Shown piece by piece: positions 765 through 60,877 of a DNA stretch of 64,000 bases (positions within the stretch are counted from its first letter, which is position 1; each line of letters starts with the position of its first letter). The position numbers and the translations under genes are program-made. Under the pieces are notes generated by a model. It saw nothing but the letters and a program-made list of their open reading frames with translations. It did not search any database and was not told where the DNA came from. Source of the DNA: Candidatus Daviesbacteria bacterium (GTDB taxonomy: Bacteria; Patescibacteriota; Microgenomatia; Daviesbacterales; UBA10151); NCBI GenBank assembly GCA_016432425.1, contig CP066688.1, positions 148,368 through 212,367 on the forward strand, read 5' to 3'.

Positions 765-1577
765 TTAAAAATTAAACTCATTTTGGATAAGTTTTTTATC
801 AATATCATCATAAGTTTCTTGAAGAGATTTTTTTTGTTGGAGTTGCCATAACTTAACATAACTGATATACAAACTAAAAGCTTGCAGGAGAGAGTCAATT
901 ACCCCCACTGTGCCATTAAAAAATCCCTGGCGTAAAATTCCTTGATTAAAAATTTCACTAAATAAAATCTTTAAAAAGCGCCAGCTGCTCATCGGGGGAT
1001 GACCGCTGTCGTAACGCAACCTGGCATCAATGTTGGCCCAATCTAAACTTTTTAGAACCATGGAATCAATATCCCGATGGGTTAAATGTAAAAAGGAATT
1101 TTCTAATTTAGCTAGTTTTCCACTAAATTTTGGGCTTTCATGAACCTTTCCCTGCCAACATTGGAGAGATACCCTTTTGAATAAACGGATTACATAATCT
1201 GGCCAAAAAGCAGGGTATTTTTTCTCTGCTCCTAAAATAATATTCCGCCGGGAAATTGCCCAAGCTCCACTACCTTCTTTTGTTAAAATATTTTGGATTT
1301 CTTCTTTTAAGGGTTTAAGCACCCGCTCATCAGCATCTACATACAAGATCCAATCCCCTTTTGCCTCCTGCAGGCCTAAATTTCTCAATCTGGAAAAATC
1401 TTTTTCTGTAATTTGAGGACTAGAGACAATTTTTGCCCCCTCTGCCTTGGCGATTTTAATGGTGTCATCGGTTGACCCATCATCCACCACTACAATTTCA
1501 TCTGCCCATTTAACAGAAGACAGACAAGCTTTAATCATCTTTTCTTCGTCTTTAGTAATAATAATTACTGATAACAT
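765..1577 (-). CDS. Glycosyltransferase family 2 (GT-A)
   Basis: MLSVIIITKDEE...WADEIVVVDDGSTDDT...YVDADE. DxD and GT2 signature motifs are present. The start ATG abuts the stop of the next gene. Confidence 0.8.
   Translation of the reverse strand: MLSVIIITKDEEKMIKACLSSVKWADEIVVVDDGSTDDTIKIAKAEGAKIVSSPQITEKDFSRLRNLGLQEAKGDWILYVDADERVLKPLKEEIQNILTKEGSGAWAISRRNIILGAEKKYPAFWPDYVIRLFKRVSLQCWQGKVHESPKFSGKLAKLENSFLHLTHRDIDSMVLKSLDWANIDARLRYDSGHPPMSSWRFLKILFSEIFNQGILRQGFFNGTVGVIDSLLQAFSLYISYVKLWQLQQKKSLQETYDDIDKKLIQNEFNF
1447..1510. repeat. 64-nt tract identical to 6265..6328 (inside GT2 paralogs)
   Basis: TTGGCGATTTTAATGGTGTCATCGGTTGACCCATCATCCACCACTACAATTTCATCTGCCCATT occurs identically in both genes and encodes WADEIVVVDDGSTDDTIKIAK. 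Confidence 0.85.
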
Positions 1578-5505: not shown

Positions 5506-6401
5506 TTCACTCTATTTGCCACTTTTTGTACAAATCTTTTAAGGGGATTTTTAGATAAATTGCCATATTTAAACCAATAATCTAAATCCTCACCGGATTT
5601 TTTCTTTAGTTGTCTAAGCTCAGTTAAGTCAATTTCTTTTGAAAAAAATTTCTCTTTTTCCCAAACTTTTAGATACATAATCAGAAAAGAAAAAGCTTGG
5701 AGCAAACTTAAAGATAGACCATGAAGGCCATCTTCAAAACCGCGGTTAGCAAAAAACCGGCTTAAAAATTCTGACAGCGGCTTAGTTAAAAGATCTGACC
5801 AACTAAATTTATAGCCATTTTCTATTAGCTCGTTTGCCTGAATTGTAGTATAACGATTTAATCGCTCCACGAATTCGTTAATTGTGCGATAGTGATGGTG
5901 AGTAATTGCCAACTCTTCCTTTAGCTCTAATTTCATTCCCTCCCCTGCCACATCTGGTGGACGATGAATTTTATTACTCCATTTAACCGCGCCTTTTCTA
6001 AAAAATCTAATGTTATAATCCGGCCACCACATAGAAGCTTTCATCCATTTGTTAAAGATGATATTTTTCCGAGGTATTTCTACATAGTTGATTTGCTCCA
6101 AATTTTTGCTAATATCGCGCAGTCTTTTTGCCAGTTCTGAAGAAATTTCTTCGTCGGTATCTAAAATTAAAATCCAATCACCACTGGCTTTAGAAATTGC
6201 CAGATTGCGGGCCGGCTCGACAAATCCAACACTTTTGTGTTTATATATTTTATTGGTATATTTTTTGGCGATTTTAATGGTGTCATCGGTTGACCCATCA
6301 TCCACCACTACAATTTCATCTGCCCATTGGACTGAAGTTAGGGCTGTTTCCAAATATAGGGCAGCATTTAAAGCATTAATCACCACAGAAATATTGGCCA
6401 T
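5502..6401 (-). CDS. Glycosyltransferase family 2
   Basis: ISVVINALN...WADEIVVVDDGSTDDTIKIAK...ILDTDEE. It shares a 64-nt identical tract with the GT2 gene at 765..1577. Confidence 0.8.
   Translation of the reverse strand: MANISVVINALNAALYLETALTSVQWADEIVVVDDGSTDDTIKIAKKYTNKIYKHKSVGFVEPARNLAISKASGDWILILDTDEEISSELAKRLRDISKNLEQINYVEIPRKNIIFNKWMKASMWWPDYNIRFFRKGAVKWSNKIHRPPDVAGEGMKLELKEELAITHHHYRTINEFVERLNRYTTIQANELIENGYKFSWSDLLTKPLSEFLSRFFANRGFEDGLHGLSLSLLQAFSFLIMYLKVWEKEKFFSKEIDLTELRQLKKKSGEDLDYWFKYGNLSKNPLKRFVQKVANRVK
6265..6328. repeat. 64-nt tract identical to 1447..1510
   Basis: See the partner feature at 1447..1510. Confidence 0.85.
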
Positions 6402-11188: not shown

Positions 11189-12623
11189 TTTTAACCTCCT
11201 GAAGATTTTGGGAAATCTTATCTTTAGCTAAGATAATAATTAGTCCCAGATAAATTGCTGCCCCAGCTATAACCATTTCCAGCAGTGATAAAGTATCATA
11301 GACCAAAAATTGTGAAAAGTAAAAAACTATCGCCCCCATCACCATGCTGGCTACCAGTGGTTGCCAAATATTTTTCCAAATTTCCACTTCCACAAAACGC
11401 TTAACTATGATAATGGTAATAATGGAAGTAAAAGAGATCGCTGCCGAGGAAATCCCCACCCCTATAAAACCATATTTAATGGTTAACAAGGGTGTTAAGA
11501 TCCAGGTAATCACGGTCCAAAAAATCATCAATTTTAAAGTTAATTTTATTTGGCCAATGGCATTTAAAGTATTGGTAAAGGTGGTCGAAAGAGTGGCCCA
11601 AAAAGTAGAAACAGAAAAAAGGTAAAAAACCGGCAAAGCCGGCTGCCATTTATCTGAAACTACGTGGGCTACCAATGAGGGGGCCAGTGCCAGTAAGCCA
11701 AAAAACATCGGGTATAAAAAAAGGGTGGTTAAAAAAAGAGATTTTTCCACTGCCACCTTTAACATTTTTTGGTCTTCTTGTAACCTGGCAAAAGTGGGGA
11801 AACTGACCCGAATGACAATATTCATTACCTCCAGCGGCAAAAAAGCTAAATTTTGAGCCCAAGTGACATAACCTACTCCAACAGAACCAATCATCTTGGC
11901 AATCACCAGCGGTACTAAACGGTCTTTAAGTAAAGAAAGAAGTGAATTTAGTTGATAAGGTATCCCAAAATTAAGTAAAACTTTTGCAGAAGACCGGGAA
12001 AAACCAAAACCAATTTTCCAGGGAGCAAGCAGATAAATCGTCACCACCCCCACCATAGCTCGCAGTAGTGTAGCAGCGGAAAAAGCTGCCAAATCAGCTT
12101 TCATTAATACCAAAATTAGTAGTACCACATTGAAGGTAAGCGTTTCTAAAATCTCCACCCCTACTAAAGGATTAAACTTGAGCTCACGCTCCAATAAGAC
12201 CGAAGGGATCACTTTAAAGGAAGTGATTAAAAAAGATACTCCTAATGCCCTAATCAGCCACATCCCTTGATCATTCAGGTTATAAAGATGAGCTAAAAAT
12301 GGGGCAGAAAACCAAATAACTACCGTCAAAACTACAATCAAAGTTTCTTGAATAGTAAAAGTGGTTCGCAAATCCTCTGCCGTCACCTTATCTTTTTTTT
12401 GAATAATGGCTGCAGCTAAACCAATATCAGAAAAAAAGCTAAAAAAAGAAACAGCGGCGGTGGCAATATTAAAAATTCCCAAAGTACTGACAGATAAGAT
12501 GCGGGCCAGTATTAAGTTAATAGTGATAAAACTAATCGCCTGCAGCGCTACCCGACGGAAAGTTAAGCTTAAGGCTCCAGCCACAGCTCGTTTGGAAATT
12601 GTGGACAAATCCAACTGGTTCAT
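11172..12623 (-). CDS. Oligosaccharide/polysaccharide flippase (MOP/Wzx-like)
   Basis: 483 aa with roughly 12-14 TM helices. The N-terminal region (MNQLDLSTISKRAVAGALSLTFRRVALQAISFITINLILARIL) is typical of Wzx/polysaccharide-biosynthesis proteins. Confidence 0.65.
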   Translation of the reverse strand: MNQLDLSTISKRAVAGALSLTFRRVALQAISFITINLILARILSVSTLGIFNIATAAVSFFSFFSDIGLAAAIIQKKDKVTAEDLRTTFTIQETLIVVLTVVIWFSAPFLAHLYNLNDQGMWLIRALGVSFLITSFKVIPSVLLERELKFNPLVGVEILETLTFNVVLLILVLMKADLAAFSAATLLRAMVGVVTIYLLAPWKIGFGFSRSSAKVLLNFGIPYQLNSLLSLLKDRLVPLVIAKMIGSVGVGYVTWAQNLAFLPLEVMNIVIRVSFPTFARLQEDQKMLKVAVEKSLFLTTLFLYPMFFGLLALAPSLVAHVVSDKWQPALPVFYLFSVSTFWATLSTTFTNTLNAIGQIKLTLKLMIFWTVITWILTPLLTIKYGFIGVGISSAAISFTSIITIIIVKRFVEVEIWKNIWQPLVASMVMGAIVFYFSQFLVYDTLSLLEMVIAGAAIYLGLIIILAKDKISQNLQEVKSAFSN

Positions 12624-14311: not shown

Positions 14312-15804
14312 GGCAAAACTTTATATAAGATAATTGCATCTGGGGCAAATTTGGGATTTAGTGGCTTAGCCTTAGGGTACTGCTTAAGAAGCACTCCTCC
14401 GGCTAAATTTTCTCCCACCCGACCTTTATTGGCCACAAAAAAGGTCTGGTTTTGTTTCGCACTGGCACGCAGCTGCGCCGAGATAGTCGCGCTTCCTCCT
14501 ACCACCCGAATATCTGCTTTGTCTAAATAGATATATAAACCATCCGGCAAGGTACCAAAAAATCCCTCCGTCCCCACCACTACCGGGCCGGATGCTTTTT
14601 GGGCTATTAAATAGTCAGCAATCTCTTTAAAATTATAGCCGGCAGTCCAATCTTCTAAATAGCCTCTTCTTTCTCCAGCCGGTAGATTAGCTTTTTCTGG
14701 TGCAGTTAATATCTGATAATCAAAACTTATCGGCAATGCTATTAAAGCTGCTACAGCAGCAAAAATTAACAACGGTTTTTTTAAGTTAAATCTTTGCCAA
14801 AAATTTTCTAAACCCAAGGCAGCGATAATTAAAAGAGGAGGGACAGAAAAAAGTAAATAGCGGGCAGTAAAAGTTTTCAAAATTGCCATTTGAATAATCA
14901 GCGGAATCAAAGCCCAAAGCAAAATAACTATTGCTAATTTTTGCCTTTTTAAAATAACGGATATTACCCCCCAGATGGTTAATAAAAAGAGGGGCAGGGT
15001 AAAAAGTTTACTGGCAAAATCTACTACATCGCGCAGATGTGGAACAAAAGGATCTAGAGGATGAGTCAATACCTCTGATAAAGAAAACATATAATCATTG
15101 TTGCGCAGTGACAGCTGTTGAAATTCCGGACCCAAACGCAGCAAATTATAAATAGTCAGAGCAATCCCCAAGGCTACCAGCCAAAAAATTAACAGTTTTG
15201 GGAAACTATTTTTTCTGATTTTTTTAAAATCAAGACCTAAGGCTGTAACAGGTAAAATCAGCAGATTCACCATGGCCGGAGTTTTGGTTAAAAGTCCCCC
15301 GCCCAATAGATATCCTAAAATCATTGCCACATCTAATCTTTGCTCCCGCAATAACCAAAGTGCAAAATACGCTGACCAAATAGAAAAAGCTGCCAACATC
15401 GAATCAACCAAAGCCATCCGGTCAAAAAAAACAGTGTAGGGTAAGACGACAAAAAATAAAGTTGCCAAAAGGGCCACTCTACTACCAAATATTTTTTTAC
15501 TTAAAAAAAATACTCCCAGTAAAGTTAAACAGCCAGAAATTACGGAAAGAAACCTACCGGCTAGCAACGGATCGGAGAAAATTTTAAATAAAGGCATCAT
15601 TAACCACATAAAAAGGGGGGTTTTACCATCGGATAAAGGCAAAAACCGCAAACCTGGTTCTGCTCTCATGATTTGTGCCCAACGGATATAAATAGCTTCA
15701 TCAGCAAAAATTGGCTGCAGGGTTAGATTTGGTAAACGGAGGGCAAAATATAAAATTATTAAACTTAAAAAAAATAGGTTAGTCTTGCTTTTCATTAAAC
15801 TCAT
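14308..15804 (-). CDS. GT-C glycosyltransferase, ArnT/PMT (GT39/GT83)-like
   Basis: An N-terminal ADEAIYIRWAQ motif (the DE motif in the first periplasmic loop of ArnT/PMT-family enzymes) is followed by ~11 TM helices. Confidence 0.6.
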   Translation of the reverse strand: MSLMKSKTNLFFLSLIILYFALRLPNLTLQPIFADEAIYIRWAQIMRAEPGLRFLPLSDGKTPLFMWLMMPLFKIFSDPLLAGRFLSVISGCLTLLGVFFLSKKIFGSRVALLATLFFVVLPYTVFFDRMALVDSMLAAFSIWSAYFALWLLREQRLDVAMILGYLLGGGLLTKTPAMVNLLILPVTALGLDFKKIRKNSFPKLLIFWLVALGIALTIYNLLRLGPEFQQLSLRNNDYMFSLSEVLTHPLDPFVPHLRDVVDFASKLFTLPLFLLTIWGVISVILKRQKLAIVILLWALIPLIIQMAILKTFTARYLLFSVPPLLIIAALGLENFWQRFNLKKPLLIFAAVAALIALPISFDYQILTAPEKANLPAGERRGYLEDWTAGYNFKEIADYLIAQKASGPVVVGTEGFFGTLPDGLYIYLDKADIRVVGGSATISAQLRASAKQNQTFFVANKGRVGENLAGGVLLKQYPKAKPLNPKFAPDAIILYKVLP

Positions 15805-17951: not shown

Positions 17952-20167
17952 GACCTAACCTTCCTCGACTCTGGCGGTTTCCCGCTAGGATTATGTATTA
18001 GTTTAAATACTTTTACACCTCTAAACTGTGACTCTTCTTCTACCTTAGCCCAACCAAAGTGGGAAATTTCTTGTTTGGGATGGCCAATTGGCTCACAGAC
18101 AGGATCTTCACAAACCACAAATAACTGCTCCGTTATTTCAAATGGTATTTGAGCTGGTTTGTATCCATACAAACCTAAATAAAATTGATATGCAGCATCA
18201 TAGTTGTTTTTAGCGATCAGGGCAAAATTAAATGGTTTGTCCGCTGATTTCTCAATTACATACTTGGCTATATCCTGTGTCCTCTGTAGTTGGTTATTGG
18301 GCGCAAGAGTTAAGGGGCTTTTTTGTAGATTAAAAACTGCCAGAACTACAATCAAAACCGCGGCTGATATTTTCATTAATTGTTTTAATGGGCCAGTGTA
18401 AAAAAATGCTAAACTATAAAAACTCCCCAGTAGGATAAATGGTACCGGACTGACAAACCCTAAATAGTGGGCATAAACATTTTGTTTATATAAAGCCAAA
18501 CCTAAAAGTGATCCTGCGAGCCAAACACCTAACATTAAATAGGGCCAAGATAAAATACCATCCTTAATTTTTCTCCCGAAAAACAATGCTAAAGGTATTA
18601 AAACTGCAACTGAGGTAATTAAAGTCAAGGTTTTCTCTTGGACTGTCAAGTAAGTGCCAATTAAAGATTCTTGGTAGAGAGGGACAATCCTAAACAGAGA
18701 GTTGACAGGGTTTAAGTTAACAGTAGCCTCCCTGTTACCAAAAAAATTTTGCAAGGCCTGAAAGTTCATAAAATTATGTTTTAAGTCAAAAAGTAGGAGC
18801 GGGGACATTAAAATTAAAAATACCAAAATAGCCAATATTGTTCCCGACCTCACATTTCCTAATTCCCTTTTTTGAGACTTACTATAAATTATTTGATGTA
18901 GCCATAAAACTGCTGCTATAGGAATTAAAATTAAAGCCAGATAATGCATTTGGACAACAAAAGCCAGCGCTCCCCCGCTTAAAATGAGCCAGCGGAAATT
19001 ACCTGTTTGATGGATTTTATATAAACCAAATATGCAAAGTAAGGCAAAAAATGGCGCCGGATTAGGATTCCAAGATGAGCGGGAATAGATGATATTGACC
19101 GGTGAAATACTATAAAGAAAGGCTGCTACCAAACCGGCCTGTTTGGAAAACCACTGGCTCGTTAGATGGTAAATCAACCAGACTGTTAAAATTCCAATGA
19201 CAGCTACCTGGTAAGCTGCCGCGACGGGATTTAGCCAAAAAATAGCCATGGGAATTGCCATCATATAGTAATAAAGGGGGCCTAAATAAATATTGCCAAT
19301 GGAGGTAGGTGGGCCAATAAATGGTAGGTCACGTTCCACTAATAATTTTTTAATTACCAAAGCATCTCTCCCTTCATCGCCCAAAAAGGTCATATATTCC
19401 GGTAGGCGGTAAAATCGCAAAATCGCCGTTAACCCTAAAAGTAACATCAAAATTAGAAATTCTTTTTTATCCAAAAGTACCCACCACAGTTTTAGTAAAT
19501 CTAAATAACTTTTAGCGACCACTTTTAAATTGGCTCCGGTTTGGGTACCGAATTTTCTCGGGTAATGGTGTACTCCCACCTCTAAAATTTTAAAACCCAT
19601 TCTTCGGGCTTTAACCAAAAACTCTATCTGGGTGACTTTTTCCTCCCCCACTAACGGTTGAACTTTTTCAAAAACTTGTTTTTTAATTAATTTAAATCCA
19701 CAAGAATAATCTCTGACATTTAAACCTAAAAGTAGTTTTGCCCCTACATTCCACACATAAGCTCCCACTATTCTGCTGAAAGAGTCCATTCTTTTAAGCC
19801 TATATCCCAAAACTAAATCTGCCTGATCAGCTTTTTCCAAAAGTTTTTTAATCTCGCCAAAGTCAAATTGGCCATCTGAATCGGCAAAAGCTACCCAGGA
19901 AAATTTAGCTGCCTTGAATCCGGTTTTTAGCGCTGCCCCATAGCCTAAATTGTGGGGGTGGGCCACCAATTTAATTTTTCTGTTTGTTTGCGAAAAATTC
20001 TCAACGATTTCTCTGGTTTTATCTTTTGATCCATCATCCACCACCACAATTTCATAATCTTCTAAGGTCAATCCTGTCAGAACTTTTACTGAGTCCGCAA
20101 TAGTTTTTTGGATATTAGCTTCTTCGTTAAAAGCCGGGAAGAAAACAGATAATTTGTCTACACTCAT
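17948..20167 (-). CDS. Fusion protein: N-terminal GT2 polyprenol-phosphate sugar synthase plus C-terminal polytopic GT-C-like domain
   Basis: The N-terminal ~230 aa carry SVFFPAFNEEANI...VVVDDGSKDKT...FADSDGQ. The C-terminal ~500 aa are multi-TM. Confidence 0.7.
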   Translation of the reverse strand: MSVDKLSVFFPAFNEEANIQKTIADSVKVLTGLTLEDYEIVVVDDGSKDKTREIVENFSQTNRKIKLVAHPHNLGYGAALKTGFKAAKFSWVAFADSDGQFDFGEIKKLLEKADQADLVLGYRLKRMDSFSRIVGAYVWNVGAKLLLGLNVRDYSCGFKLIKKQVFEKVQPLVGEEKVTQIEFLVKARRMGFKILEVGVHHYPRKFGTQTGANLKVVAKSYLDLLKLWWVLLDKKEFLILMLLLGLTAILRFYRLPEYMTFLGDEGRDALVIKKLLVERDLPFIGPPTSIGNIYLGPLYYYMMAIPMAIFWLNPVAAAYQVAVIGILTVWLIYHLTSQWFSKQAGLVAAFLYSISPVNIIYSRSSWNPNPAPFFALLCIFGLYKIHQTGNFRWLILSGGALAFVVQMHYLALILIPIAAVLWLHQIIYSKSQKRELGNVRSGTILAILVFLILMSPLLLFDLKHNFMNFQALQNFFGNREATVNLNPVNSLFRIVPLYQESLIGTYLTVQEKTLTLITSVAVLIPLALFFGRKIKDGILSWPYLMLGVWLAGSLLGLALYKQNVYAHYLGFVSPVPFILLGSFYSLAFFYTGPLKQLMKISAAVLIVVLAVFNLQKSPLTLAPNNQLQRTQDIAKYVIEKSADKPFNFALIAKNNYDAAYQFYLGLYGYKPAQIPFEITEQLFVVCEDPVCEPIGHPKQEISHFGWAKVEEESQFRGVKVFKLIHNPSGKPPESRKVRS

Positions 20168-26024: not shown

Positions 26025-26426
26025 CTAGTATACCAAGTTATCTTCTATTTTTTTACTGTTGACGGGAATACCCAGAGACAATCCTAGAGCATTGGCTACT
26101 GAAACTCCCACTCTCAAACCAGTAAAAGATCCCGGCCCAGTTTCTACCTCAATTCCAGTCAAAATTTTCCAATTTGAATTTGCACAATTTGCACTCCTGG
26201 TCTGTTTTTGAACCTGCACTCCCGGAGTGTAGGTTTGAAGTAACTTTTCTATTAGTGGCAGTAAAACTTGAGATCCATACTCATTTTCCTGGCTTAAACT
26301 AGCCATTACTTCCCCATCTTTTTTAAGAGAAACCTCCACCACTTTTTGGTCTTTGGTATTAATATGGAGTATCATCATAATACGAATTTTACCACGAGCA
26401 GGGATGACATCATACACGCTTGACAA
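26025..26426 (-). CDS. tsaB: tRNA t6A biosynthesis protein TsaB-like (short form); the true start may be the internal Met near 26378
   Basis: ...ILTGIEVETGPGSFTGLRVGVSVANALGLSLGIPV matches the conserved TsaB/YeaZ core (GPGSFTG(L/V)R). It carries a 45-nt in-frame repeat insertion (see finding). Confidence 0.55.
   Translation of the reverse strand: MSSVYDVIPARGKIRIMMILHINTKDQKVVEVSLKKDGEVMASLSQENEYGSQVLLPLIEKLLQTYTPGVQVQKQTRSANCANSNWKILTGIEVETGPGSFTGLRVGVSVANALGLSLGIPVNSKKIEDNLVY
26188..26232. repeat. In-frame palindromic repeat element (45 nt) inside tsaB
   Basis: TTGCACTCCTGGTCTGT is a 17/17 reverse-complement match to 48593..48609. AACCTGCACTCCCGGAGTG is an 18/19 match to 48563..48581. Confidence 0.6.
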
Positions 26427-26453
26427 ATGCTATAGGACATAGTATAATTATTT

Positions 26454-26962
26454 TCATGGAATCAGAGATTAACCGGGCTTCGGTTAAAGATCGTGTAAAA
26501 ACAAAACACATAAAATCATTTGCTCGCTTAGGAATAAGCGCCCTAGTTATTGCCGCTCCTATATTAGAACAAAGTTTTGTCCAAGCCGGCGGATGTTTAT
26601 TACCAGAAGCCCCTGGACATTTAAGAATTTGGGCAGAACCAATTCACATGCATGCGGGGAGTTCTGATGAACCTTTGCCAGATCACTCTCATCTCTTTAG
26701 ATTTTTATGGGAACCAGCCCTAGGAGCTAGCGGATATGAATTTAGATTGGATGATCCAACTACCACCGGTATCATTAATGGCGTTAATAAAGAACCAGAT
26801 GTGGAAGGTCTTTTACCGCGTACTGGAATTGATGTTGATTTGCAAAACCCGACTACCTATAACTGGAGTGTAAGTTCTGTAAATGAATGCGGCGAAAGCG
26901 TCGAAGCGGTAGGCCCAAACCTGACCATCGCTGGATACACTATTAATCCTACTGTTCAATAA
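26454..26962 (+). CDS. Hypothetical small secreted/membrane-anchored protein
   Basis: An ORF starting MESEINRASV has one TM helix (LGISALVIAAPIL). It lies in the otherwise empty gap upstream of prfB. No homology is recognised. Confidence 0.3.
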
Positions 26963-46822: not shown

Positions 46823-46898
46823 GCCGCGTTCGTCTAGTGGCCTAGGACATCGGATTCTCATTCCGAAAATCAGGGGTTCAAATCCCCTACGCGGTACC
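46823..46898 (+). tRNA. tRNA-Glu (anticodon CUC)
   Basis: A manual cloverleaf fold gives a 7-bp acceptor stem (GCCGCGU/ACGCGGU), a D-arm GUCUAGUGGCCUAGGAC, an anticodon stem UCGGA/UCCGA with loop UUCUCAU, and a T-arm AGGGGUUCAAAUCCCCU. The discriminator is A and CC is encoded. It is closely similar to canonical bacterial tRNA-Glu. Confidence 0.85.
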
Positions 46899-46906
46899 GA
46901 GCGATC

Positions 46907-46949
46907 CTACAAATTTAACCTGCAAACCTGCACTCCTGGAGTGAAATCG
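46907..46949. repeat. 43-nt direct repeat, copy 1 (half-element of the palindromic repeat family)
   Basis: CTACAAATTTAACCTGCAAACCTGCACTCCTGGAGTGAAATCG is identical to 48545..48587. Confidence 0.8.
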
Positions 46950-47135
46950 TTTAAGAACAGAAAGAGACCGACTAATCAATTACTTGAGTGAAAGTCAAAG
47001 ATATAAATAACTAGAAGTTTCTTGAAGATGGGTTCCCTTTCCCAGAGCAGAGAATAAACGCACTTCCAGGATAGTAAAAACGACCTCCTTTAACGGTTAT
47101 TTCTGCAGAGGGGAGGCCACCATACCCCATAGGTA

Positions 47136-47163
47136 TTGACTTTATGAGTCTAATGCATATAAT
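47136..47163 (+). promoter_or_regulatory. Near-consensus sigma70 promoter (TTGACT-N16-TATAAT)
   Basis: TTGACT is at 47136..47141 and TATAAT at 47158..47163, about 22 nt upstream of the ATG at 47185. Confidence 0.5.
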
Positions 47164-47184
47164 TTAACAATCTGCCTAATAAAT

Positions 47185-47949
47185 ATGGCTACTGAAGGTC
47201 AACCAACACCAATTCCAAATTTAATTATTGCCCATGTCAACGAAAATCTTTTATTAACCCATGTTAGGACTGTTTCAGATCCTAAGTCTTTACTAGATCG
47301 AAACACCATACATGGAGATCCCTATTTACATAACGTTAAACTTTTCGCAGCCTTTAAAGAACCAGAATATGATCCTGCTAAGATGACTGCTGCTTTAAAT
47401 GAATTAATCACAGCACTAAGATCTTATGAATTTAAAGGAAGTGCTATGGGAAGTAGAATAGATCGTTTTTGGCATGGGGCTGGCAATTTAGTTCCTGGAG
47501 TATTATTTCTTCACGAGCCAATGGGTATAAGAGTAGAAACAAGTACTTGGAGTTTTAAACCCAACAATGAATATGCCAGAGGAGTTATGGCTCAAGCAGG
47601 AATGGAAGAGGGACAAGAGCATACAAAAGTTGAAGAAAAACCTATGTGGAGACAGGTTTCTACTACTATTCTCCCTTCGATCCCCTTAGCAAACTTAGCT
47701 GCAACTAATGAAGAAATGAGTAATATTCCAAAACAGGAGGACAGACCATTTCCTGTTAAAAATTCCTTATATGCGTATCATGGGGTATTAAGCCTGGGAG
47801 ACCTTGAGAAGCTTAAACAAGATCCAACTTATGTACAGGAGATGGCTGATAAAGCATTAGTGGGTTACAGAGTTCCAGGAATAACTAGAAGACCAGGAAG
47901 AATTGAAAGAATAGCTCAAACTTTTGGTTTTCTGCCTTCTCAAGGTTAA
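47185..47949 (+). CDS. Hypothetical protein (254 aa) in the tRNA-adjacent islet
   Basis: This is an ORF with a strong upstream promoter. No family is recognised. Confidence 0.5.
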   Translation: MATEGQPTPIPNLIIAHVNENLLLTHVRTVSDPKSLLDRNTIHGDPYLHNVKLFAAFKEPEYDPAKMTAALNELITALRSYEFKGSAMGSRIDRFWHGAGNLVPGVLFLHEPMGIRVETSTWSFKPNNEYARGVMAQAGMEEGQEHTKVEEKPMWRQVSTTILPSIPLANLAATNEEMSNIPKQEDRPFPVKNSLYAYHGVLSLGDLEKLKQDPTYVQEMADKALVGYRVPGITRRPGRIERIAQTFGFLPSQG

Positions 47950-48353
47950 CTCTTTTTAGCTTCTTTAATTTTATCAGTTATTTCTTTTTTTGAATATTCC
48001 TTATCTATTCTGAAAAAGATTGTGTAACTTTTCTTCTTTAATGGATTTGGATAAATAAAAATACAGACTTCAGGGATATAACCTCCATTTTTAATCTTTT
48101 TAGATTTATGCCATTTGTAGAGTCTTATCAGTAATTTCTCAATTTGGCTAGCTAGAAGGCTAGAAAATACTCCTAACCAGAATTCCTTCATGGTTAGCCA
48201 AGCCACTACAATTTCCTTTATCTCAGCTTCGCCGCCCCCACCCATTTGACCAGCTTTATATTTAAAACCTAGCTTTTCTAGTTCTTGAGCAAGAGAAGAA
48301 GAGGCAGGCTTATTATAGATATAAGGGTCTTCTCTTACAGAGTAGTATTTCAT
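47946..48353 (-). CDS. Hypothetical protein (135 aa), convergent with and overlapping the previous gene by 4 nt
   Basis: The ORF is K-rich at its C-terminus and has a hydrophobic segment (WLGVFSSLLAS). No family is recognised. Confidence 0.4.
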   Translation of the reverse strand: MKYYSVREDPYIYNKPASSSLAQELEKLGFKYKAGQMGGGGEAEIKEIVVAWLTMKEFWLGVFSSLLASQIEKLLIRLYKWHKSKKIKNGGYIPEVCIFIYPNPLKKKSYTIFFRIDKEYSKKEITDKIKEAKKS

Positions 48354-48481
48354 TGATTGTATTATAATGGTTTTAATCTCTAATGGTAGTTATACGCCAG
48401 ATTTGGCTTGAAGCTGGAATTGAGGAGATTTGCCCAAGCTTGCAATGAAGCTAGAAGCTGGTTCCAATTCTCAATCATTTG

Positions 48482-48494
48482 GGGTACCGAGCGA
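48482..48494. repeat. Duplicated 13-nt copy of the tRNA-Glu 3' end (GGTACCGAGCGAT), a candidate att-site remnant
   Basis: It is an exact match to 46893..46905, which spans the tRNA 3' end and 9 nt beyond. The upstream ~30 nt (GGTTCCAATTCTCAATCATTTGGG) loosely resembles a degraded T-arm. Confidence 0.55.
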
Positions 48495-48544
48495 TTACAT
48501 TATCACATAATGAGTCTTTTAAGTATTAAATATTTATTTTCCAA

Positions 48545-48608
48545 CCTACAAATTTAACCTGCAAACCTGCACTCCTGGAGTGAAATCGAATTGACAGACC
48601 AGGAGTGC
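48545..48608. repeat. Palindromic repeat element, full copy (43-nt direct repeat plus an inverted arm forming an 11-bp stem)
   Basis: 48545..48587 equals 46907..46949. TGCACTCCTGG (48567..48577) pairs with CCAGGAGTGCA (48598..48608) around a 20-nt loop. Confidence 0.7.
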
Positions 48609-48694
48609 AAGTTCAGACTGAAATGCACAAATCTAGTTTAGTAATTAGGTTTGGTAATTAGGGATAATATGATATCCGCTCTCTTGTTTATTCA

Positions 48695-53826: not shown

Positions 53827-54570
53827 CAATTTATATTTCCACATCGGGAGTGGAATTATATTGACACATCGGTAAAATTGAGATACACTCAGCTGTAAAT
53901 GCCAGCAAGAACTACTCCTCTGGTAAATGAACAAATTTATCATATATATAATCGGGGTACAGAGAAAAGAAGAATCTTTGATAATAAAAGGTGTTATTCA
54001 AGATTCATACAGACTATTAGATATTATCAGCTAGAAGGCCCTAAACCTAAGTTTTCTAACTTTATTAAACAGAAGTTATTTAATCCTGATCCCGAGAAGA
54101 AGATAGTTGAAATAATCTGTTATTGTTTAATGCCAAATCACTTTCACTTATTGGTTAAACAATTAAAAGATGGGGGAATTAGTGAATTTATGAGAAAACT
54201 AAGTGATAGCTATACTAAATACTACAATATTAAATTTGAAAGAGTAGGAGCTTTATTACAAGGTCCATTTAAAGCAGTTTTAATAGAAACTGATGAACAG
54301 CTCACACATGTGTCCCGCTACATTCATTTAAATCCACTAGTGTCTTTTTTGGTAAAGGATTTAGCTCAATACGAATGGTCATCTTATGAAGAATACATTA
54401 ATAATAAATCAATTGGTATTTGTGTTAAAGAAAATGTGTTAGGTTTTTTCAAATCACCAGAGGATTATAAACAATTTGTCCTAGACCAAGCAGGTTATGG
54501 TCAACAACTAGAATTAATCAAACACCAATTAGTAGATGAATAATTTTGAGCCTACACATCGGGAGTGGAA
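53827..54570 (+). mobile_element. IS200/IS605-like or RAYT-type HUH Y1 transposase unit with 16-nt flanking direct repeats
   Basis: The transposase ORF is bracketed by CACATCGGGAGTGGAA at 53830..53845 and 54555..54570. Each repeat sits within a short inverted repeat (TTCCAC...GTGGAA). Confidence 0.7.
53899..54543 (+). CDS. REP-associated tyrosine transposase / IS200-family HUH transposase (COG1943-like)
   Basis: YHIYNRGTEKRRIF...CYCLMPNHFHLLVKQ (HUH motif)...YTKYYN...GALLQGPFKAV...SRYIHLNPL (catalytic Tyr helix). 214 aa. Confidence 0.8.
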   Translation: MPARTTPLVNEQIYHIYNRGTEKRRIFDNKRCYSRFIQTIRYYQLEGPKPKFSNFIKQKLFNPDPEKKIVEIICYCLMPNHFHLLVKQLKDGGISEFMRKLSDSYTKYYNIKFERVGALLQGPFKAVLIETDEQLTHVSRYIHLNPLVSFLVKDLAQYEWSSYEEYINNKSIGICVKENVLGFFKSPEDYKQFVLDQAGYGQQLELIKHQLVDE

Positions 54571-60034: not shown

Positions 60035-60877
60035 TTAAATATTAACAATTTCAGAGAGAGTTTTAAACCGTGTTGGTAAAGTGTCAGAGAAAAACTCTTC
60101 TTGTTTTGTCCCCTGTAAAGTTAACCCTTCTTGCCAAAGGGCCCGGCCAGCCAAAAATCCCCGGGCCCCAGCTTTGGTAGCTACTGCCAGTTGCAATTTA
60201 AATTCTTCAAAACTAACACCACCCGTCAACAGTATCCAGGGGGTCTTTCCCACCAAATGAGAAATTTCCCGGCAGGCATCCTCATCTCCTGGATATTCCA
60301 ATTTCCAAACATCTGGTATTACTCCTACCTCTATAAAAGACCTGACTGATTCAATCACCATCCCAGCTTTTGAATCTACACTCCCGATGTGGAATTGTAC
60401 CTGCACATCGGGAGTGTAAGTTACAATTTCTAAAAAGAAAGGCAAATTATTTTGCTGACAATCTTTTAAAACCTGTTTAGCTGTTTCTAGCTGCACTTTT
60501 GCACTCCCTAATTGAGGATTAAAATAGACCAGTAATTTCGCTCCTGAGGCTCCTAAGTTTTTAACCTGCTCTACAGAATATTCTAATTCCGTAATTCTTT
60601 CTCTCTCCTGATCAAGAAAACCGCTTTTTTCTACAGGAAGCAGAAATGGTTTTAGTTGACAAGCTTCTTTGCAAGCTTCTAGACCAAAACGCTCGTCAAT
60701 CAAAAGCCCACTCATTTCATTGACCAAAGAATTAATGATTTTATTTTTTAGATCAATAATTTGCTCTTCTGTAACCTCCTGGGGGTTTCCCGGATTAACT
60801 ATTTTTTTAAAACTATCCCGATGATCCAAAGCCAACATTAAAAACTTACCGTTTTTTTGGAATTTAATGGTATTCAT
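60035..60877 (-). CDS. Class I aldolase, tagatose-1,6-bisphosphate aldolase (LacD)/DhnA-like, carrying an in-frame palindromic insert
   Basis: LMLALDHRDSF resembles the LacD-family N-terminal motif. The (beta/alpha)8 pattern runs through ...LLTGGVSFEEF. Confidence in the exact family is moderate. Confidence 0.55.
   Translation of the reverse strand: MNTIKFQKNGKFLMLALDHRDSFKKIVNPGNPQEVTEEQIIDLKNKIINSLVNEMSGLLIDERFGLEACKEACQLKPFLLPVEKSGFLDQERERITELEYSVEQVKNLGASGAKLLVYFNPQLGSAKVQLETAKQVLKDCQQNNLPFFLEIVTYTPDVQVQFHIGSVDSKAGMVIESVRSFIEVGVIPDVWKLEYPGDEDACREISHLVGKTPWILLTGGVSFEEFKLQLAVATKAGARGFLAGRALWQEGLTLQGTKQEEFFSDTLPTRFKTLSEIVNI
60377..60418. repeat. Perfect 15-bp-stem palindromic element (42 nt) lying in-frame inside the aldolase gene
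   Basis: TACACTCCCGATGTG-gaattgtacctg-CACATCGGGAGTGTA. The arms match the transposase-flanking repeat CACATCGGGAGTG. Confidence 0.75.

What the first reader, a model, noticed from the sequence alone, without database searches (positions are those of the whole stretch)
26188..26232. Second in-frame copy of the same repeat family inside tsaB, encoding the same 'TYTP-VQVQ' peptide
The 45 nt at 26188..26232 make up 15 codons. They contain TTGCACTCCTGGTCTGT, a 17/17 reverse-complement match to 48593..48609, and AACCTGCACTCCCGGAGTG, an 18/19 match to 48563..48581. On the coding (minus) strand the segment reads TACACTCCGGGAGTGCAGGTTCAA, against TACACTCCCGATGTGCAGGTACAA in the aldolase. It is translated as LQTYTPGVQVQKQTRSANCANSN, placed just before the conserved GPGSFTG core of TsaB, where canonical TsaB has a short linker. 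So two unrelated housekeeping genes carry the same element in the same frame and orientation, giving a shared TYTP[G/D]VQVQ peptide. This suggests insertion that is frame- or orientation-selective, or selection for it, as seen for RPE-1.
Basis: seen in the sequence. Interest (0 to 1): 0.7.

Follow-up and report, generated by a model that had tools for sequence, protein, structure and literature searches.

The report
Mobile palindromic repeat translated inside tsaB
A short GC-rich palindromic repeat, of the kind that flanks a REP-associated (RAYT-like) transposase gene 27 kb away, sits in frame in a surface loop of the tRNA-modification gene tsaB of a Daviesbacteria (CPR) genome, and related genomes hold their own versions of it in the same loop, so it is a known kind of element in a new host with an unusual habit of living inside genes.

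Summary
The tsaB segment is a two-unit palindromic repeat: a 13-nt arm, a 12-nt loop and a 13-nt arm at 26192-26229. It shares 17/17 and 18/19 nt with an intergenic copy at 48564-48613. It has the same layout as a copy inside a DeoC/LacD aldolase (60379-60416).

The same repeat brackets a Y1 HUH transposase gene (53899-54543). That protein's only NCBIfam hit and best PDB matches are REP-associated tyrosine transposases (RAYT). The element is therefore REP/REPIN-like.

Of 156 distinct Daviesbacteria TsaB sequences, 61 have a plain 21-aa linker. The rest carry inserts in the same loop. The insert arms differ between lineages but stay complementary: 7 of 15 pairs show compensatory changes. In one other genome the arms match the repeats flanking that genome's own RAYT gene.

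A tree of the flanking genes mixes filled and empty alleles, which implies repeated gain or replacement. Every canonical intragenic copy found, in three different genes, has one orientation and one reading frame. That frame encodes a polar, Cys-free peptide.

Intragenic REPs and Rickettsia RPEs are precedents. This is a new member of a known kind, in a new phylum.

The parts
26025..26378 (-). tsaB coding sequence: a short, N-terminal-domain-only TsaB of 117 aa
   Evidence: ORF listed. Pfam TsaD scores 37.4 bits against a cutoff of 24.8. TIGR03725 TsaB scores 60.5 bits, below its cutoff of 69.3. The ORF is 100% identical to the annotated 117-aa Daviesbacteria protein P0001.
26192..26229 (-). 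Core of the repeat inside tsaB. On the coding strand it reads: left arm CACTCCGGGAGTG (26229-26217), loop CAGGTTCAAAAA (26216-26205), right arm CAGACCAGGAGTG (26204-26192). It is translated as part of YTPGVQVQKQTRS.
   Evidence: The arms are only 10/13 complementary. As single-stranded DNA, only the self-palindromic left unit folds, with z about -2.3.
26177..26194 (-). Tandem 9-nt duplication, GTGCAAATT twice, at the 3' edge of the element. It belongs to a 15-nt expansion (codons NCANS) that the closest available allele, L091, lacks.
   Evidence: Sequence. Comparison with L091.
26181..26240 (-). Full stretch of similarity to the intergenic copy, flanks included (CTTCAAACCTAC...GTGCAAATT)
   Evidence: Local alignment of the tsaB minus strand with 48545-48630 on the plus strand scores 54 and runs through both arms and both flanks.
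48564..48613 (+). Intergenic two-unit copy: CACTCCTGGAGTG, a 12-nt loop, then CAGACCAGGAGTG. This is the closest relative of the tsaB copy.
   Evidence: Folds as a hairpin with 15-bp arms at -14.7 kcal/mol, z -5.5.
46906..46949 (+). A 44-nt exact duplicate of 48545-48588, containing one repeat unit, immediately 3' of tRNA-Glu
   Evidence: (family D4).
53837..53872 (+). Repeat module upstream of the transposase gene: hairpin TTCCACATCGGGAGTGGAA, spacer TTATATTGA, then half unit CACATCGG
   Evidence: The orthologous module in L167 has the identical core.
53899..54543 (+). RAYT-like Y1 HUH transposase gene, 214 aa. HUH motif is NHFHLL; catalytic Tyr lies in SRYIHLNP.
   Evidence: Pfam Y1_Tnp scores 35.3 against a cutoff of 23. 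NCBIfam REP_Tyr_transpos is the only hit, at 53.3 bits against a cutoff of 80. Motifs. Best PDB hits are 4ER8.
54551..54570 (+). Repeat unit immediately downstream of the transposase gene (CTACACATCGGGAGTGGAA)
60379..60416 (-). Canonical 13+12+13 copy inside the aldolase gene (60035-60877, minus strand), translated as YTPDVQVQFHIGSV
   Evidence: The arms are perfectly complementary. Folds at -16.4 kcal/mol, z -5.95. The 13-mer is identical to the unit flanking the transposase gene.

Best explanation
The tsaB segment is a copy of a REP/REPIN-like element. Such an element is two inverted 13-nt GC-rich units around a 12-nt loop, plus short conserved flanks. The master copies bracket RAYT-like Y1 HUH transposase genes in the same genome.

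By analogy with RAYT and IS200/IS605 enzymes, the transposase is inferred to recognise the hairpin in single-stranded DNA and to cut and rejoin it. That would spread copies around the genome.

In this very compact, AT-rich genome, a copy persists only where it does no harm. Here that place is the surface loop between helix alpha1 and the GPGSFTG strand of a short TsaB. The copy keeps the reading frame, has no stop codon, and is translated into about 16 extra polar residues.

The single orientation and frame seen in tsaB, the aldolase and a third gene is best explained by selection. That frame gives a Pro/Gly/Ser/Gln/Thr-rich peptide without Cys or Trp. Two of the three reverse frames usually hit a stop codon in the loop.

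Shown here: family membership, linkage to the RAYT-like gene, in-frame status, variable presence among homologues, hairpin covariation, and placement in a loop. Inferred: mobilisation by the RAYT-like protein, and selection as the cause of the frame bias.
For: Repeat family and its significance.

Transposase linkage:
- The Y1 HUH transposase gene is flanked on both sides by the repeat.
- The orthologue in L167 (78% identical, same CobA-RAYT-RNR synteny) has the identical flanking core.
- Other paralogues have their own cognate cores. The RAYT1 orthologues at L081 10001-10651 and L163 10001-10651 are both flanked by CCACCCTTGGGGTGG. L081 RAYT2 has CAAACCSGGTTTG, and L165 RAYT-b has CACCTGGAAGGTG.
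- In GCA_028712705 the tsaB insert, CAATCCCGGTTTG...CAAACCGGGATTG, matches the RAYT2-flanking type.
- The PQVS-type tsaB inserts are the reverse complement of the RAYT1-flank module.
- The profile search of PDB sequences gives 4ER8 (TnpA_REP) as best hit at E 0.065. Foldseek gives 4ER8 as best hit at E 3.2e-4, TM 0.61.

Insertion status:
- The TsaB linker is 21 aa in 61 of 156 distinct sequences and up to 56 aa in the rest.
- The AF2 model has pLDDT below 50 at residues 57-67, between helix 39-50 and strand 73-80.

Hairpin covariation:
- 93% of cells are paired.
- 7 of 15 pairs show changes on both sides.
- 0 of 500 shuffles reach the observed covariation score.
- Sliding the partner columns destroys the signal.

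Frame:
- All 16 canonical intragenic doublets are in phase 2 with the same loop orientation. They lie in tsaB, the aldolase and a Pyr_redox_2 gene.

Aldolase: 18 of 120 homologues, besides the window's own protein, carry the same peptide types in the same loop. In 23 the loop is short.
Against: - The tsaB copy in this window is a poor hairpin. Its arms are 10/13 complementary and the long stem is not predicted. It may no longer be mobile.
- No RAYT gene of the subfamily closest to the tsaB copy is present in the window. Its expected position holds an unrelated 1.6-kb segment.
- The RAYT assignment is below NCBIfam's cutoff, and the structural model is low-confidence at pLDDT 59.6.
- The canonical 5' GT[AG]G tag of REPs is not clearly present.
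- Copy number looks low. In the 20-kb samples of other genomes, the main repeat types have no dispersed copies beyond the RAYT flanks and the intragenic sites; only the CACCTCGnAGGTG type shows further sites. High-copy dispersal is therefore not shown.
- The 16 same-frame copies represent only three genes and an unknown number of independent events.
- Selection alone does not explain why the tsaB loop is occupied in so many lineages.
Confidence: 0.75

Rival explanations
1. Targeted insertion. The element is directed by its transposase to a specific sequence or DNA structure in the tsaB loop, and in the aldolase loop, with a fixed polarity. On this view the shared site, orientation and frame come from the insertion mechanism, not from selection on the peptide.
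For: - Filled and empty alleles are interspersed in a flanking-gene tree. There are six well-supported mixed clades, with bootstrap 75-99.
- L082 (filled) is 92% identical in the TsaB core to L134, which has the ancestral-type 21-aa linker.
- At least four structurally different insert classes occupy the same loop.
- Random insertion into one 20-nt loop of a genome of about 0.8 Mb (estimated from the 820,589-nt contig) several times over is very unlikely.
- IS200/IS605-type enzymes are known to be target- and strand-specific (established knowledge).
Against: - Insert boundaries differ between lineages. N-side examples: KLL-RT, KLL-KRT, KLL-SHLSHV. C-side: W-K-x-L versus G-K-L.
- No common target motif was found immediately 5' of the element in the three genes.
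- Native codons are replaced, not simply interrupted.
- The tree rests on two flanking genes and neighbour joining only.
Confidence: 0.3
2. One ancient insertion per gene, inherited vertically. The arms were then kept complementary and updated in place, for example by repair within the hairpin or by gene conversion from the genome's current repeats. Empty alleles would arise by loss or by allele exchange.
For: - The 12-nt loop (TCAAnTCAAAAC) and the flanks are conserved while the arms co-vary.
- Window and L091 share the same asymmetric right arm, CAGACCAGGAGTG.
- P0058 has two tandem copies, which suggests additions at an already occupied site.
Against: - Loss of the element cannot regenerate the conserved 21-aa ancestral-type linker found in sister lineages.
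- The PQVS-type and single-palindrome inserts have a different architecture from the 13+12+13 type.
- The sister lineages WIN and L136 carry different arm types.
Confidence: 0.25
3. The insert has been co-opted. Either the RNA or DNA hairpin regulates tsaB (pausing, mRNA stability, a protein-binding site), or the extra peptide loop has a function in the TsaB-TsaD complex. On this view it is retained by positive selection.
For: - About 60% of distinct TsaB homologues are occupied.
- Pairing in the arms is strictly maintained.
- The encoded peptide class is the same in three genes.
Against: - Many lineages do well without the insert.
- Insert length and sequence vary widely, from 19 to 56 aa linkers.
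- The window's own copy has lost the long hairpin.
- The same element in unrelated enzymes argues against a protein-specific role.
- The AF2 model shows a low-confidence loop.
Confidence: 0.1
4. The transposase genes are ordinary mobile IS200-type insertion sequences. On this view the short repeats are their ends or MITE-like derivatives, not a domesticated RAYT/REP system.
For: - The Pfam hit is to the IS200-like family.
- The repeat modules on the two sides of the gene are in direct orientation, as the ends of IS200/IS605 elements are.
- Several paralogues occur per genome.
Against: - The gene keeps its position (CobA-RAYT-RNR) in three genomes that differ by 22-33% at the protein level.
- The homologues diverge about as much as TsaB does, which is what single-copy vertically inherited genes do.
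- The protein has the long region after the catalytic Tyr that aligns with TnpA_REP (YI..NP...W.SS).
- The best sequence-profile and fold matches are 4ER8, ahead of IS608 and ISDra2.
- The only NCBIfam hit is the RAYT model.
Confidence: 0.12
5. The extra residues are a native, conserved TsaB linker, and the nucleotide similarity to other loci is chance.
For: None beyond the fact that the ORF is intact.
Against: - Homologues without the insert are common.
- There are 17/17 and 18/19 nt matches, and 0 of 100 shuffles reach the observed count.
- The element occurs in unrelated genes and next to the transposase gene.
Confidence: 0.01

Closest known systems
REP/REPIN-RAYT systems (REPtrons) of Escherichia, Pseudomonas and others (Nunvar 2010; Bertels and Rainey 2011, PMC3116915; Ton-Hoang 2012; Quentin 2018, PMC6006769)
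   Same: - Short GC-rich palindromic units, often as inverted doublets that fold into a hairpin.
- A Y1 HUH transposase gene bracketed by its own repeat type.
- One repeat type per transposase paralogue.
- A transposase gene held in a conserved position and diverging like a housekeeping gene.
   Different: - The host is a CPR/Patescibacteria lineage, and I found no paper describing this.
- The units are very short: 13 nt with a 12-nt loop.
- The 5' GT[AG]G tag is not evident.
- The flanking modules are in direct orientation.
- Copy number appears low.
- The canonical two-unit copies found away from the transposase loci are all intragenic, not extragenic.
Intragenic GTAG/CGTC REPs ('REP-decorated proteins'; Di Nocera et al. 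2013, PMC3733652)
   Same: - REP singlets and dimers sit in frame inside genes for known proteins and encode about 20-30 aa.
- Different REPs lie at about the same site of recB in two Xanthomonas species.
   Different: Here one loop of tsaB is occupied in roughly 60% of the distinct homologues examined. All canonical copies share one frame and orientation. The arms co-vary with the genome's own RAYT-flanking repeats.
Rickettsia palindromic elements (RPE; Ogata et al. 2000, 2002; summarised in PMC10969869)
   Same: - Palindromic repeats inserted in frame into unrelated housekeeping genes of a small genome.
- They are translated and sit at sites compatible with the protein fold.
   Different: - RPE-1 is about 150 bp, and no transposase has been linked to it.
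- The present element is 38-60 nt and is linked to a RAYT-like gene.
- Sequence similarity to RPEs was not tested.
IS200/IS605 insertion sequences (IS608, ISDra2)
   Same: - The same enzyme fold and HUH/Tyr chemistry.
- Subterminal hairpins recognised as single-stranded DNA.
   Different: - The gene here is syntenic and not evidently mobile.
- The protein is 214 aa, with a region after the catalytic Tyr that aligns with TnpA_REP.
- The dispersed copies are 40-60-nt hairpins without the gene.

Membership tests
REP/REPIN-RAYT system | A Y1 HUH transposase with the HUH motif and a catalytic tyrosine | tested here: met
   Pfam PF01797 scores 35.3 bits against a cutoff of 23. The motifs NHFHLL and SRYIHLNP are invariant in 16 homologues.
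REP/REPIN-RAYT system | The transposase belongs to the RAYT (TnpA_REP) branch rather than to IS200 TnpA | tested here: inconclusive
   NCBIfam NF047646 is the only hit but scores 53-56 bits against a cutoff of 80. The PDB profile search puts 4ER8 first at E 0.065. Foldseek puts 4ER8 first at E 3.2e-4, but the model has pLDDT 59.6.
REP/REPIN-RAYT system | The transposase gene is flanked by the same palindromic repeat that is dispersed elsewhere in the genome | tested here: met
   Units at 53840-53852 and 54555-54567 flank the gene. The identical 13-mer lies at 60404-60416, and related units lie at 26217, 46931 and 48570.
REP/REPIN-RAYT system | Each transposase paralogue has its own repeat type | tested here: met
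   Four cognate pairs were seen in the window, L081, L163, L165 and L167.
REP/REPIN-RAYT system | Repeats occur as inverted doublets that fold into a long hairpin (REPIN) | tested here: met
   Aldolase copy z -5.95. Intergenic copy z -5.5. tsaB copies in L165 and L001 z -4.0 and -6.0. Covariation. The window's own tsaB copy is degenerate, with arms 10/13 complementary.
REP/REPIN-RAYT system | A conserved 5' GT[AG]G tetranucleotide at the foot of the hairpin | tested here: inconclusive
   Some copies are bracketed by CTAC...GTAG (for example 60376-60420), but there the tag is part of the stem, with the opposite polarity to the E. coli arrangement. Other copies lack it.
REP/REPIN-RAYT system | Tens to hundreds of mostly extragenic copies per genome | not testable with these tools
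   Only 64 kb of the 820,589-nt contig is available. It holds six sites, two of them intragenic. The 20-kb samples of other genomes show few copies.
REP/REPIN-RAYT system | The transposase gene is single-copy per type and vertically inherited | tested here: met
   The same CobA-RAYT-RNR neighbourhood occurs in the window, L081 and L167. Identity is 65-78% across Daviesbacteria, similar to TsaB. Copy number in the whole genome was not testable.
REP/REPIN-RAYT system | The transposase binds, cleaves and rejoins its repeat as single-stranded DNA | not testable with these tools
   This needs biochemistry.
Rickettsia palindromic elements (RPE) | In-frame insertion of a palindromic repeat into unrelated housekeeping genes, read through by translation | tested here: met
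   The ORFs of tsaB, the aldolase and the Pyr_redox_2 gene are intact across the element. No filled allele has a stop or a frameshift. Translation itself is inferred.
Rickettsia palindromic elements (RPE) | Element of roughly 100-150 bp belonging to the RPE sequence families | tested here: not met
   The element is 38 nt at its core and about 60 nt with flanks. RPE is about 150 bp according to PMC10969869. Sequence similarity was not tested.
TsaB/YeaZ | ASKHA-type N-terminal domain with the GPGSFTG motif | tested here: met
   Pfam and TIGR03725 hits. The motif is invariant in alignment A1.
TsaB/YeaZ | Full two-domain protein of about 210-230 aa | tested here: not met
   The TIGR03725 match covers only profile positions 1-88 of 212. 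Daviesbacteria homologues are 100-151 aa.

The most novel reading that the evidence does not exclude
In Daviesbacteria, REPIN-like elements are repeatedly and independently delivered to the same loops of a few housekeeping genes (tsaB, a DeoC-type aldolase, a Pyr_redox_2 flavoprotein), in one orientation and one reading frame. That would imply a site- and polarity-specific integration activity of a RAYT-like enzyme. It would also imply a repeat family whose dispersed copies sit mainly inside genes.
Probability: 0.25. Interest if true: 0.8.

Novelty: new member of a known kind. Interest (0 to 1): 0.55.

Why it matters
RAYT/REPIN systems have been characterised mostly in Proteobacteria and are defined as extragenic. 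Here a related system appears in a CPR bacterium from a MAG whose largest contig is 820,589 nt.

In the DNA sampled, the canonical two-unit copies away from the transposase loci all lie inside genes. They are translated into short polar loops.

The tsaB loop offers a natural series of filled, differently filled and empty alleles. That series can be used to test three things:

- how RAYT-type enzymes choose their targets;
- how hairpin symmetry is maintained;
- how proteins absorb mobile DNA.

There is also a practical point. These inserts explain length variation in CPR housekeeping proteins and could mislead alignments and phylogenies.

Tried and rejected
- **Genome-contig scan with the full TsaB alignment.** It was swamped by generic TsaB/TsaD matches and yielded only five close loci. 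A second scan, of metagenomes with an N-terminal-only alignment, worked.
- **Neighbour-joining tree of the ~95-aa TsaB core.** It was unresolved, so I used the flanking genes RF2 and CAP instead. The first bootstrap run timed out. It was repeated with a faster distance calculation.
- **Search for each genome's tsaB arm sequence elsewhere in its own 20-kb locus.** It found almost nothing, apart from L002 and L112, each with a copy just upstream of tsaB. The own-genome match therefore had to be tested at RAYT loci.
- **Single-sequence PDB search with the transposase.** It found only ISDra2, weakly. The profile search was needed to reach 4ER8.
- **AF2 model of the transposase.** It is low-confidence, so the fold match is supportive only.
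- **Rfam.** It found nothing except the tRNA.
- **Pfam, PHROGs and NCBIfam on the two ORFs in the 1.6-kb segment between the repeat copies.** No hits.
- **Removal or bypass of the insert (intein-like or translational bypass).** Rejected: every filled allele keeps the frame and lacks stop codons.
- **A restriction or methylation site as the explanation for the CC-N-GG core.** Rejected: the conserved feature is the long inter-arm pairing and the linkage to the transposase gene.
Full report
**The observation**

The window comes from a Candidatus Daviesbacteria MAG. The tsaB product is 100% identical to the annotated protein HYW45_00790, which sits on a contig of 820,589 nt.

On the minus strand, tsaB (26025-26378, 117 aa) reads ...EKLLQTYTPGVQVQKQTRSANCANSNWKILTGIEVETGPGSFTG....

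- TTGCACTCCTGGTCTGT lies at 26189-26205. It is the exact reverse complement of 48594-48610.
- AACCTGCACTCCCGGAGTG lies at 26211-26229 and matches 48564-48582 at 18/19.

The interval 26188-26232 is not in codon register. The 15 codons YTPGVQVQKQTRSAN are 26231..26187.

The 11-nt core, allowing one mismatch, occurs five times in the window against 0.5 expected. None of 100 dinucleotide-preserving shuffles reached five.

**Anatomy of the family**

The window has six sites:
- the tsaB copy;
- a single unit 3' of tRNA-Glu (46931-46943, inside a 44-nt exact repeat at 46906-46949);
- an intergenic doublet (48564-48613);
- one module on each side of ORF 53899-54543;
- a doublet inside the DeoC/LacD-type aldolase gene (60379-60416).

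The canonical form is a 13-nt arm, a 12-nt loop and the reverse-complementary 13-nt arm. The two units are therefore in 25-nt register.
- The aldolase copy is perfect. It reads CACTCCCGATGTG-CAGGTACAATTC-CACATCGGGAGTG on the coding strand and folds at -16.4 kcal/mol, z -5.95.
- The intergenic doublet folds at z -5.5.
- The tsaB copy has the same 13+12+13 layout: CACTCCGGGAGTG-CAGGTTCAAAAA-CAGACCAGGAGTG at 26229..26192. Its arms are only 10/13 complementary, so only the self-palindromic left unit folds, at z about -2.3.
- The tsaB copy shares its unusual right arm and both flanks with the 48.6-kb copy.
- A tandem 9-nt duplication (GTGCAAATT twice, 26177-26194) lies at the 3' edge of the tsaB copy, within a 15-nt expansion (five codons, NCANS) relative to the closest allele available, L091.

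**Link to a transposase**

ORF 53899-54543 (214 aa) is a Y1 HUH transposase.
- Pfam PF01797 scores above its cutoff.
- The HUH motif is NHFHLL. The catalytic Tyr lies in SRYIHLNP.
- Its only NCBIfam hit is the REP-associated tyrosine transposase model, at 53 bits against a cutoff of 80.
- A profile of 16 homologues hits E. coli TnpA_REP (4ER8) first among all PDB sequences, at E 0.065. The alignment runs from the HUH motif through the region after the Tyr (YI..NP...W.SS).
- A low-confidence AF2 model (pLDDT 59.6) also finds 4ER8 first (E 3.2e-4, TM 0.61), ahead of IS608 and ISDra2.

The gene is bracketed by TTCCACATCGGGAGTGGAA upstream and CTACACATCGGGAGTGGAA downstream. The 13-mer in these modules is identical to the right arm of the aldolase copy.

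The pattern repeats in related genomes.
- L167: the orthologue is 78% identical, lies in the same CobA-RAYT-RNR neighbourhood, and has the identical flanking core.
- L081 and L163: the RAYT1 orthologue is flanked on both sides by TCCACCCTTGGGGTGGA.
- L081: a second paralogue is flanked by CAAACCSGGTTTG.
- L165: a third paralogue is flanked by CACCTGGAAGGTG.

One repeat type per transposase paralogue, with the gene itself held in place, is the signature described for RAYT/REP systems (PMC6006769; PMC5581495).

**Is the tsaB segment an insertion?**

Yes. Among 156 distinct Daviesbacteria TsaB sequences, the segment between GSQVLLPLI and GPGSFTG was classified as follows:
- 61 have a plain linker of 15-22 aa, almost all 21 aa (for example EKILKQEKLDFKDLKGIEVET);
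- 37 are TPGV-type, as in the window;
- 25 are NPGL/KPGL/RPGL-type;
- 9 are PQVS...HPxGG-type;
- 4 carry a single palindrome with no net gain in length;
- 20 are other.

At the DNA level the inserts are the same 13+12+13 element with different arms. L165, for example, reads TACAATCCCGGATTG-TCAAGTCAAATC-CAATCCGGGATTGGA.

The PQVS-type inserts are the reverse complement of the module that flanks RAYT1 genes. In L118, CCGCAGGTGTCAATACAAGTACACCCCAAGGGTGTAC compares with CCGCAGGTGTCAATACCAATCCACCCCAAGGGTGGAC from the L081 flank.

In GCA_028712705 the tsaB insert (CAATCCCGGTTTG...CAAACCGGGATTG) matches the repeat flanking that genome's second RAYT. A compensatory A/T exchange keeps the two arms complementary.

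An AF2 model places the window's insert in a low-confidence loop (pLDDT below 50 at residues 57-67) between helix 39-50 and strand 73-80.

**Hairpin covariation**

I aligned ten tsaB inserts from different lineages with the window's aldolase insert. They align without gaps. For the 15-bp inter-arm helix:
- 93% of cells pair;
- all 13 inner pairs pair in every sequence;
- 7 of 15 pairs show changes on both sides;
- the covariation score is 0.33 against 0.12 in shuffles, and 0 of 500 shuffles reach it;
- sliding the partner columns by 1-3 positions destroys the signal.

The conserved feature is therefore pairing between the two units. Several arms are not self-palindromic.

**Other genes, and the frame**

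In aldolase homologues, the loop after FLEIVTY carries TP[DGE]V...HIGS, NPGL...QSGI or PQV...HPxG peptides in 18 of 120 homologues besides the window's own protein. It is short in 23.

In L166 (GCA_964360965.1) the aldolase has the element. A Pyr_redox_2 flavoprotein gene 1.7 kb downstream has another copy, translated as HTPDVSAQSHIGSGS.

I scanned about 0.9 Mb of Daviesbacteria DNA for canonical doublets, finding 19 in all.
- 16 canonical intragenic copies turned up, in three genes. All are in the same phase and have the same loop orientation.
- The two intergenic ones, both next to RAYT positions, have the loop the other way round.
- One further intragenic doublet, in a cation ATPase gene of L166, has a 15-nt loop, belongs to a different repeat type and lies in a different frame.

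The six-frame table shows what each frame would encode.
- The frame in use gives Pro/Gly/Ser/Gln/Thr-rich peptides without Cys or Trp.
- The two other forward frames are open but contain Cys, Arg and Trp.
- Two of the three reverse frames usually contain a stop codon in the loop.

Selection for a harmless peptide is thus a sufficient explanation of the shared frame. The number of independent events is unknown, so an insertion bias cannot be excluded.

**History of the tsaB site**

I built a neighbour-joining tree from the two genes flanking tsaB, RF2 and a CAP-domain protein (34 loci, 626 columns, 100 bootstraps). Filled and empty alleles are interspersed, with six well-supported mixed clades:

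| Clade | Bootstrap |
|---|---|
| L095, L102 empty with L108/L109 filled | 99 |
| L096 empty with L001 filled | 80 |
| L114 filled with L106, L127, L129 empty | 75 |
| L087 empty with L156 filled | 76 |
| L087, L156 plus L125 empty and L002 filled (the clade enclosing the one above) | 97 |
| L121 single palindrome with L148, L151 empty | 82 |

Further observations:
- The window (TPGV-type) is sister to L136 (NPGL-type) at 92.
- Outside the linker, L082 (filled) is 92% identical to L134, which has the ancestral-type 21-aa linker.
- Where the two can be aligned, the element replaces about seven native codons rather than simply interrupting them.
- Insert boundaries vary between lineages.

Loss of the element cannot regenerate the conserved 21-aa linker. 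These data therefore point to several independent gains or replacements in the same loop. Why this loop is hit so often is unexplained. The possibilities are a target motif, re-insertion or conversion at a resident repeat, or allele exchange. I rate the targeted-insertion reading at about 0.25-0.3.

**Comparison with what is known**

- The system works like a REP/REPIN-RAYT system and meets most of the defining features that I could test.
- Three features remain open: the transposase's membership of the RAYT branch is supported but below curated thresholds; the GT[AG]G tag is not evident; and high copy number could not be tested.
- Intragenic, in-frame REPs are documented. Dimers encode 20-30 aa, and different REPs lie at the same site of recB in two Xanthomonas species (PMC3733652).
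- REPs inserted in frame within tnpA_REP genes are documented too (PMC6006769).
- Rickettsia RPEs are the classic case (PMC10969869).
- I found no paper linking RAYT or REP elements to CPR/Patescibacteria.

**Verdict**

It is a new member of a known kind. Two points have some novelty: the host phylum, and the repeated in-frame occupation of the same protein loops.

Noticed in passing
window 46887-48588: A 1.6-kb segment is bracketed by direct repeats. The repeats are GGTACCGAGCGAT (the 3' end of tRNA-Glu plus 9 nt) at 46887 and 48483, and a 44-nt exact repeat carrying one REP unit at 46906-46949 and 48545-48588. The segment holds two ORFs (47185-47949 on the plus strand, 47946-48353 on the minus strand) with no Pfam, PHROGs or NCBIfam hit. 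It lies upstream of the H+-PPase gene, at the position where GCA_028712705 (L081) has a second RAYT gene. It may be an insertion into, or a replacement of, a RAYT2 locus.
   Followed up: partly
window 26025-26378, and homologues P0001-P0120: Daviesbacteria TsaB is only 100-151 aa. It matches only positions 1-88 of the 212-position TIGR03725 TsaB profile, so the C-terminal domain of canonical TsaB/YeaZ is missing across the clade.
   Followed up: partly
L166 11833-12888 and 13829-16432: A Pyr_redox_2 flavoprotein gene carries a canonical element (12549-12586) in the same frame as tsaB and the aldolase. A cation ATPase gene carries a different palindrome pair (CACCTCGCAGGTG...CACCTGCAAGGTG, 14967-15007) in a different frame, belonging to another repeat type (CACCTCGnAGGTG). 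That type also occurs at L166 10851 and 20287.
   Followed up: partly
L087, L094, L139 and similar loci (tsaB linker): A subset of 21-aa 'empty' linkers (KLLRTTNxELKTL) contains CGAACTAC and CTCAAAAC. These resemble the 5' flank and the loop of the element. These alleles tend to be sister to filled ones in the flank-gene tree. Whether they are a preferred target or a scar is unresolved.
   Followed up: no
L081 3600-3641 versus L160 131-190; window 48564-48613 versus 26185-26237: The element flanks (AACCTRC...TGTAAAGCTAA) are collinear between a RAYT-flanking master copy and a tsaB copy. The 12-nt loop, however, is in the opposite orientation, as if the spacer had flipped between the inverted arms.
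   Followed up: no
window 53856-53890; L081 9960-10000: The repeat module upstream of the RAYT gene carries TTGACA, followed 17 nt later by TACACT (TATGCT in L081). That is a sigma-70-like promoter layout, so the repeat may supply the transposase gene's promoter.
   Followed up: no
window 26420-26962 (+): A 180-aa ORF fills the 715-nt gap between tsaB and prfB and has no Pfam or PHROGs hit. In L082 the same gap is only about 120 nt. The ORF may be lineage-specific or spurious.
   Followed up: no
window 1447-1519 and 6265-6337: A 73-nt direct repeat, 96% identical, lies inside two different minus-strand ORFs. A third, 63% identical copy lies at 20001-20073. These probably mark paralogous genes.
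   Followed up: no
L167 10651-10843: Downstream of the RAYT1 orthologue, two different repeat types sit side by side: CCACATCGGGAGTGG and CCCACCCTTGGGGTGG. The second is the type that flanks RAYT1 in L081 and L163.
   Followed up: no
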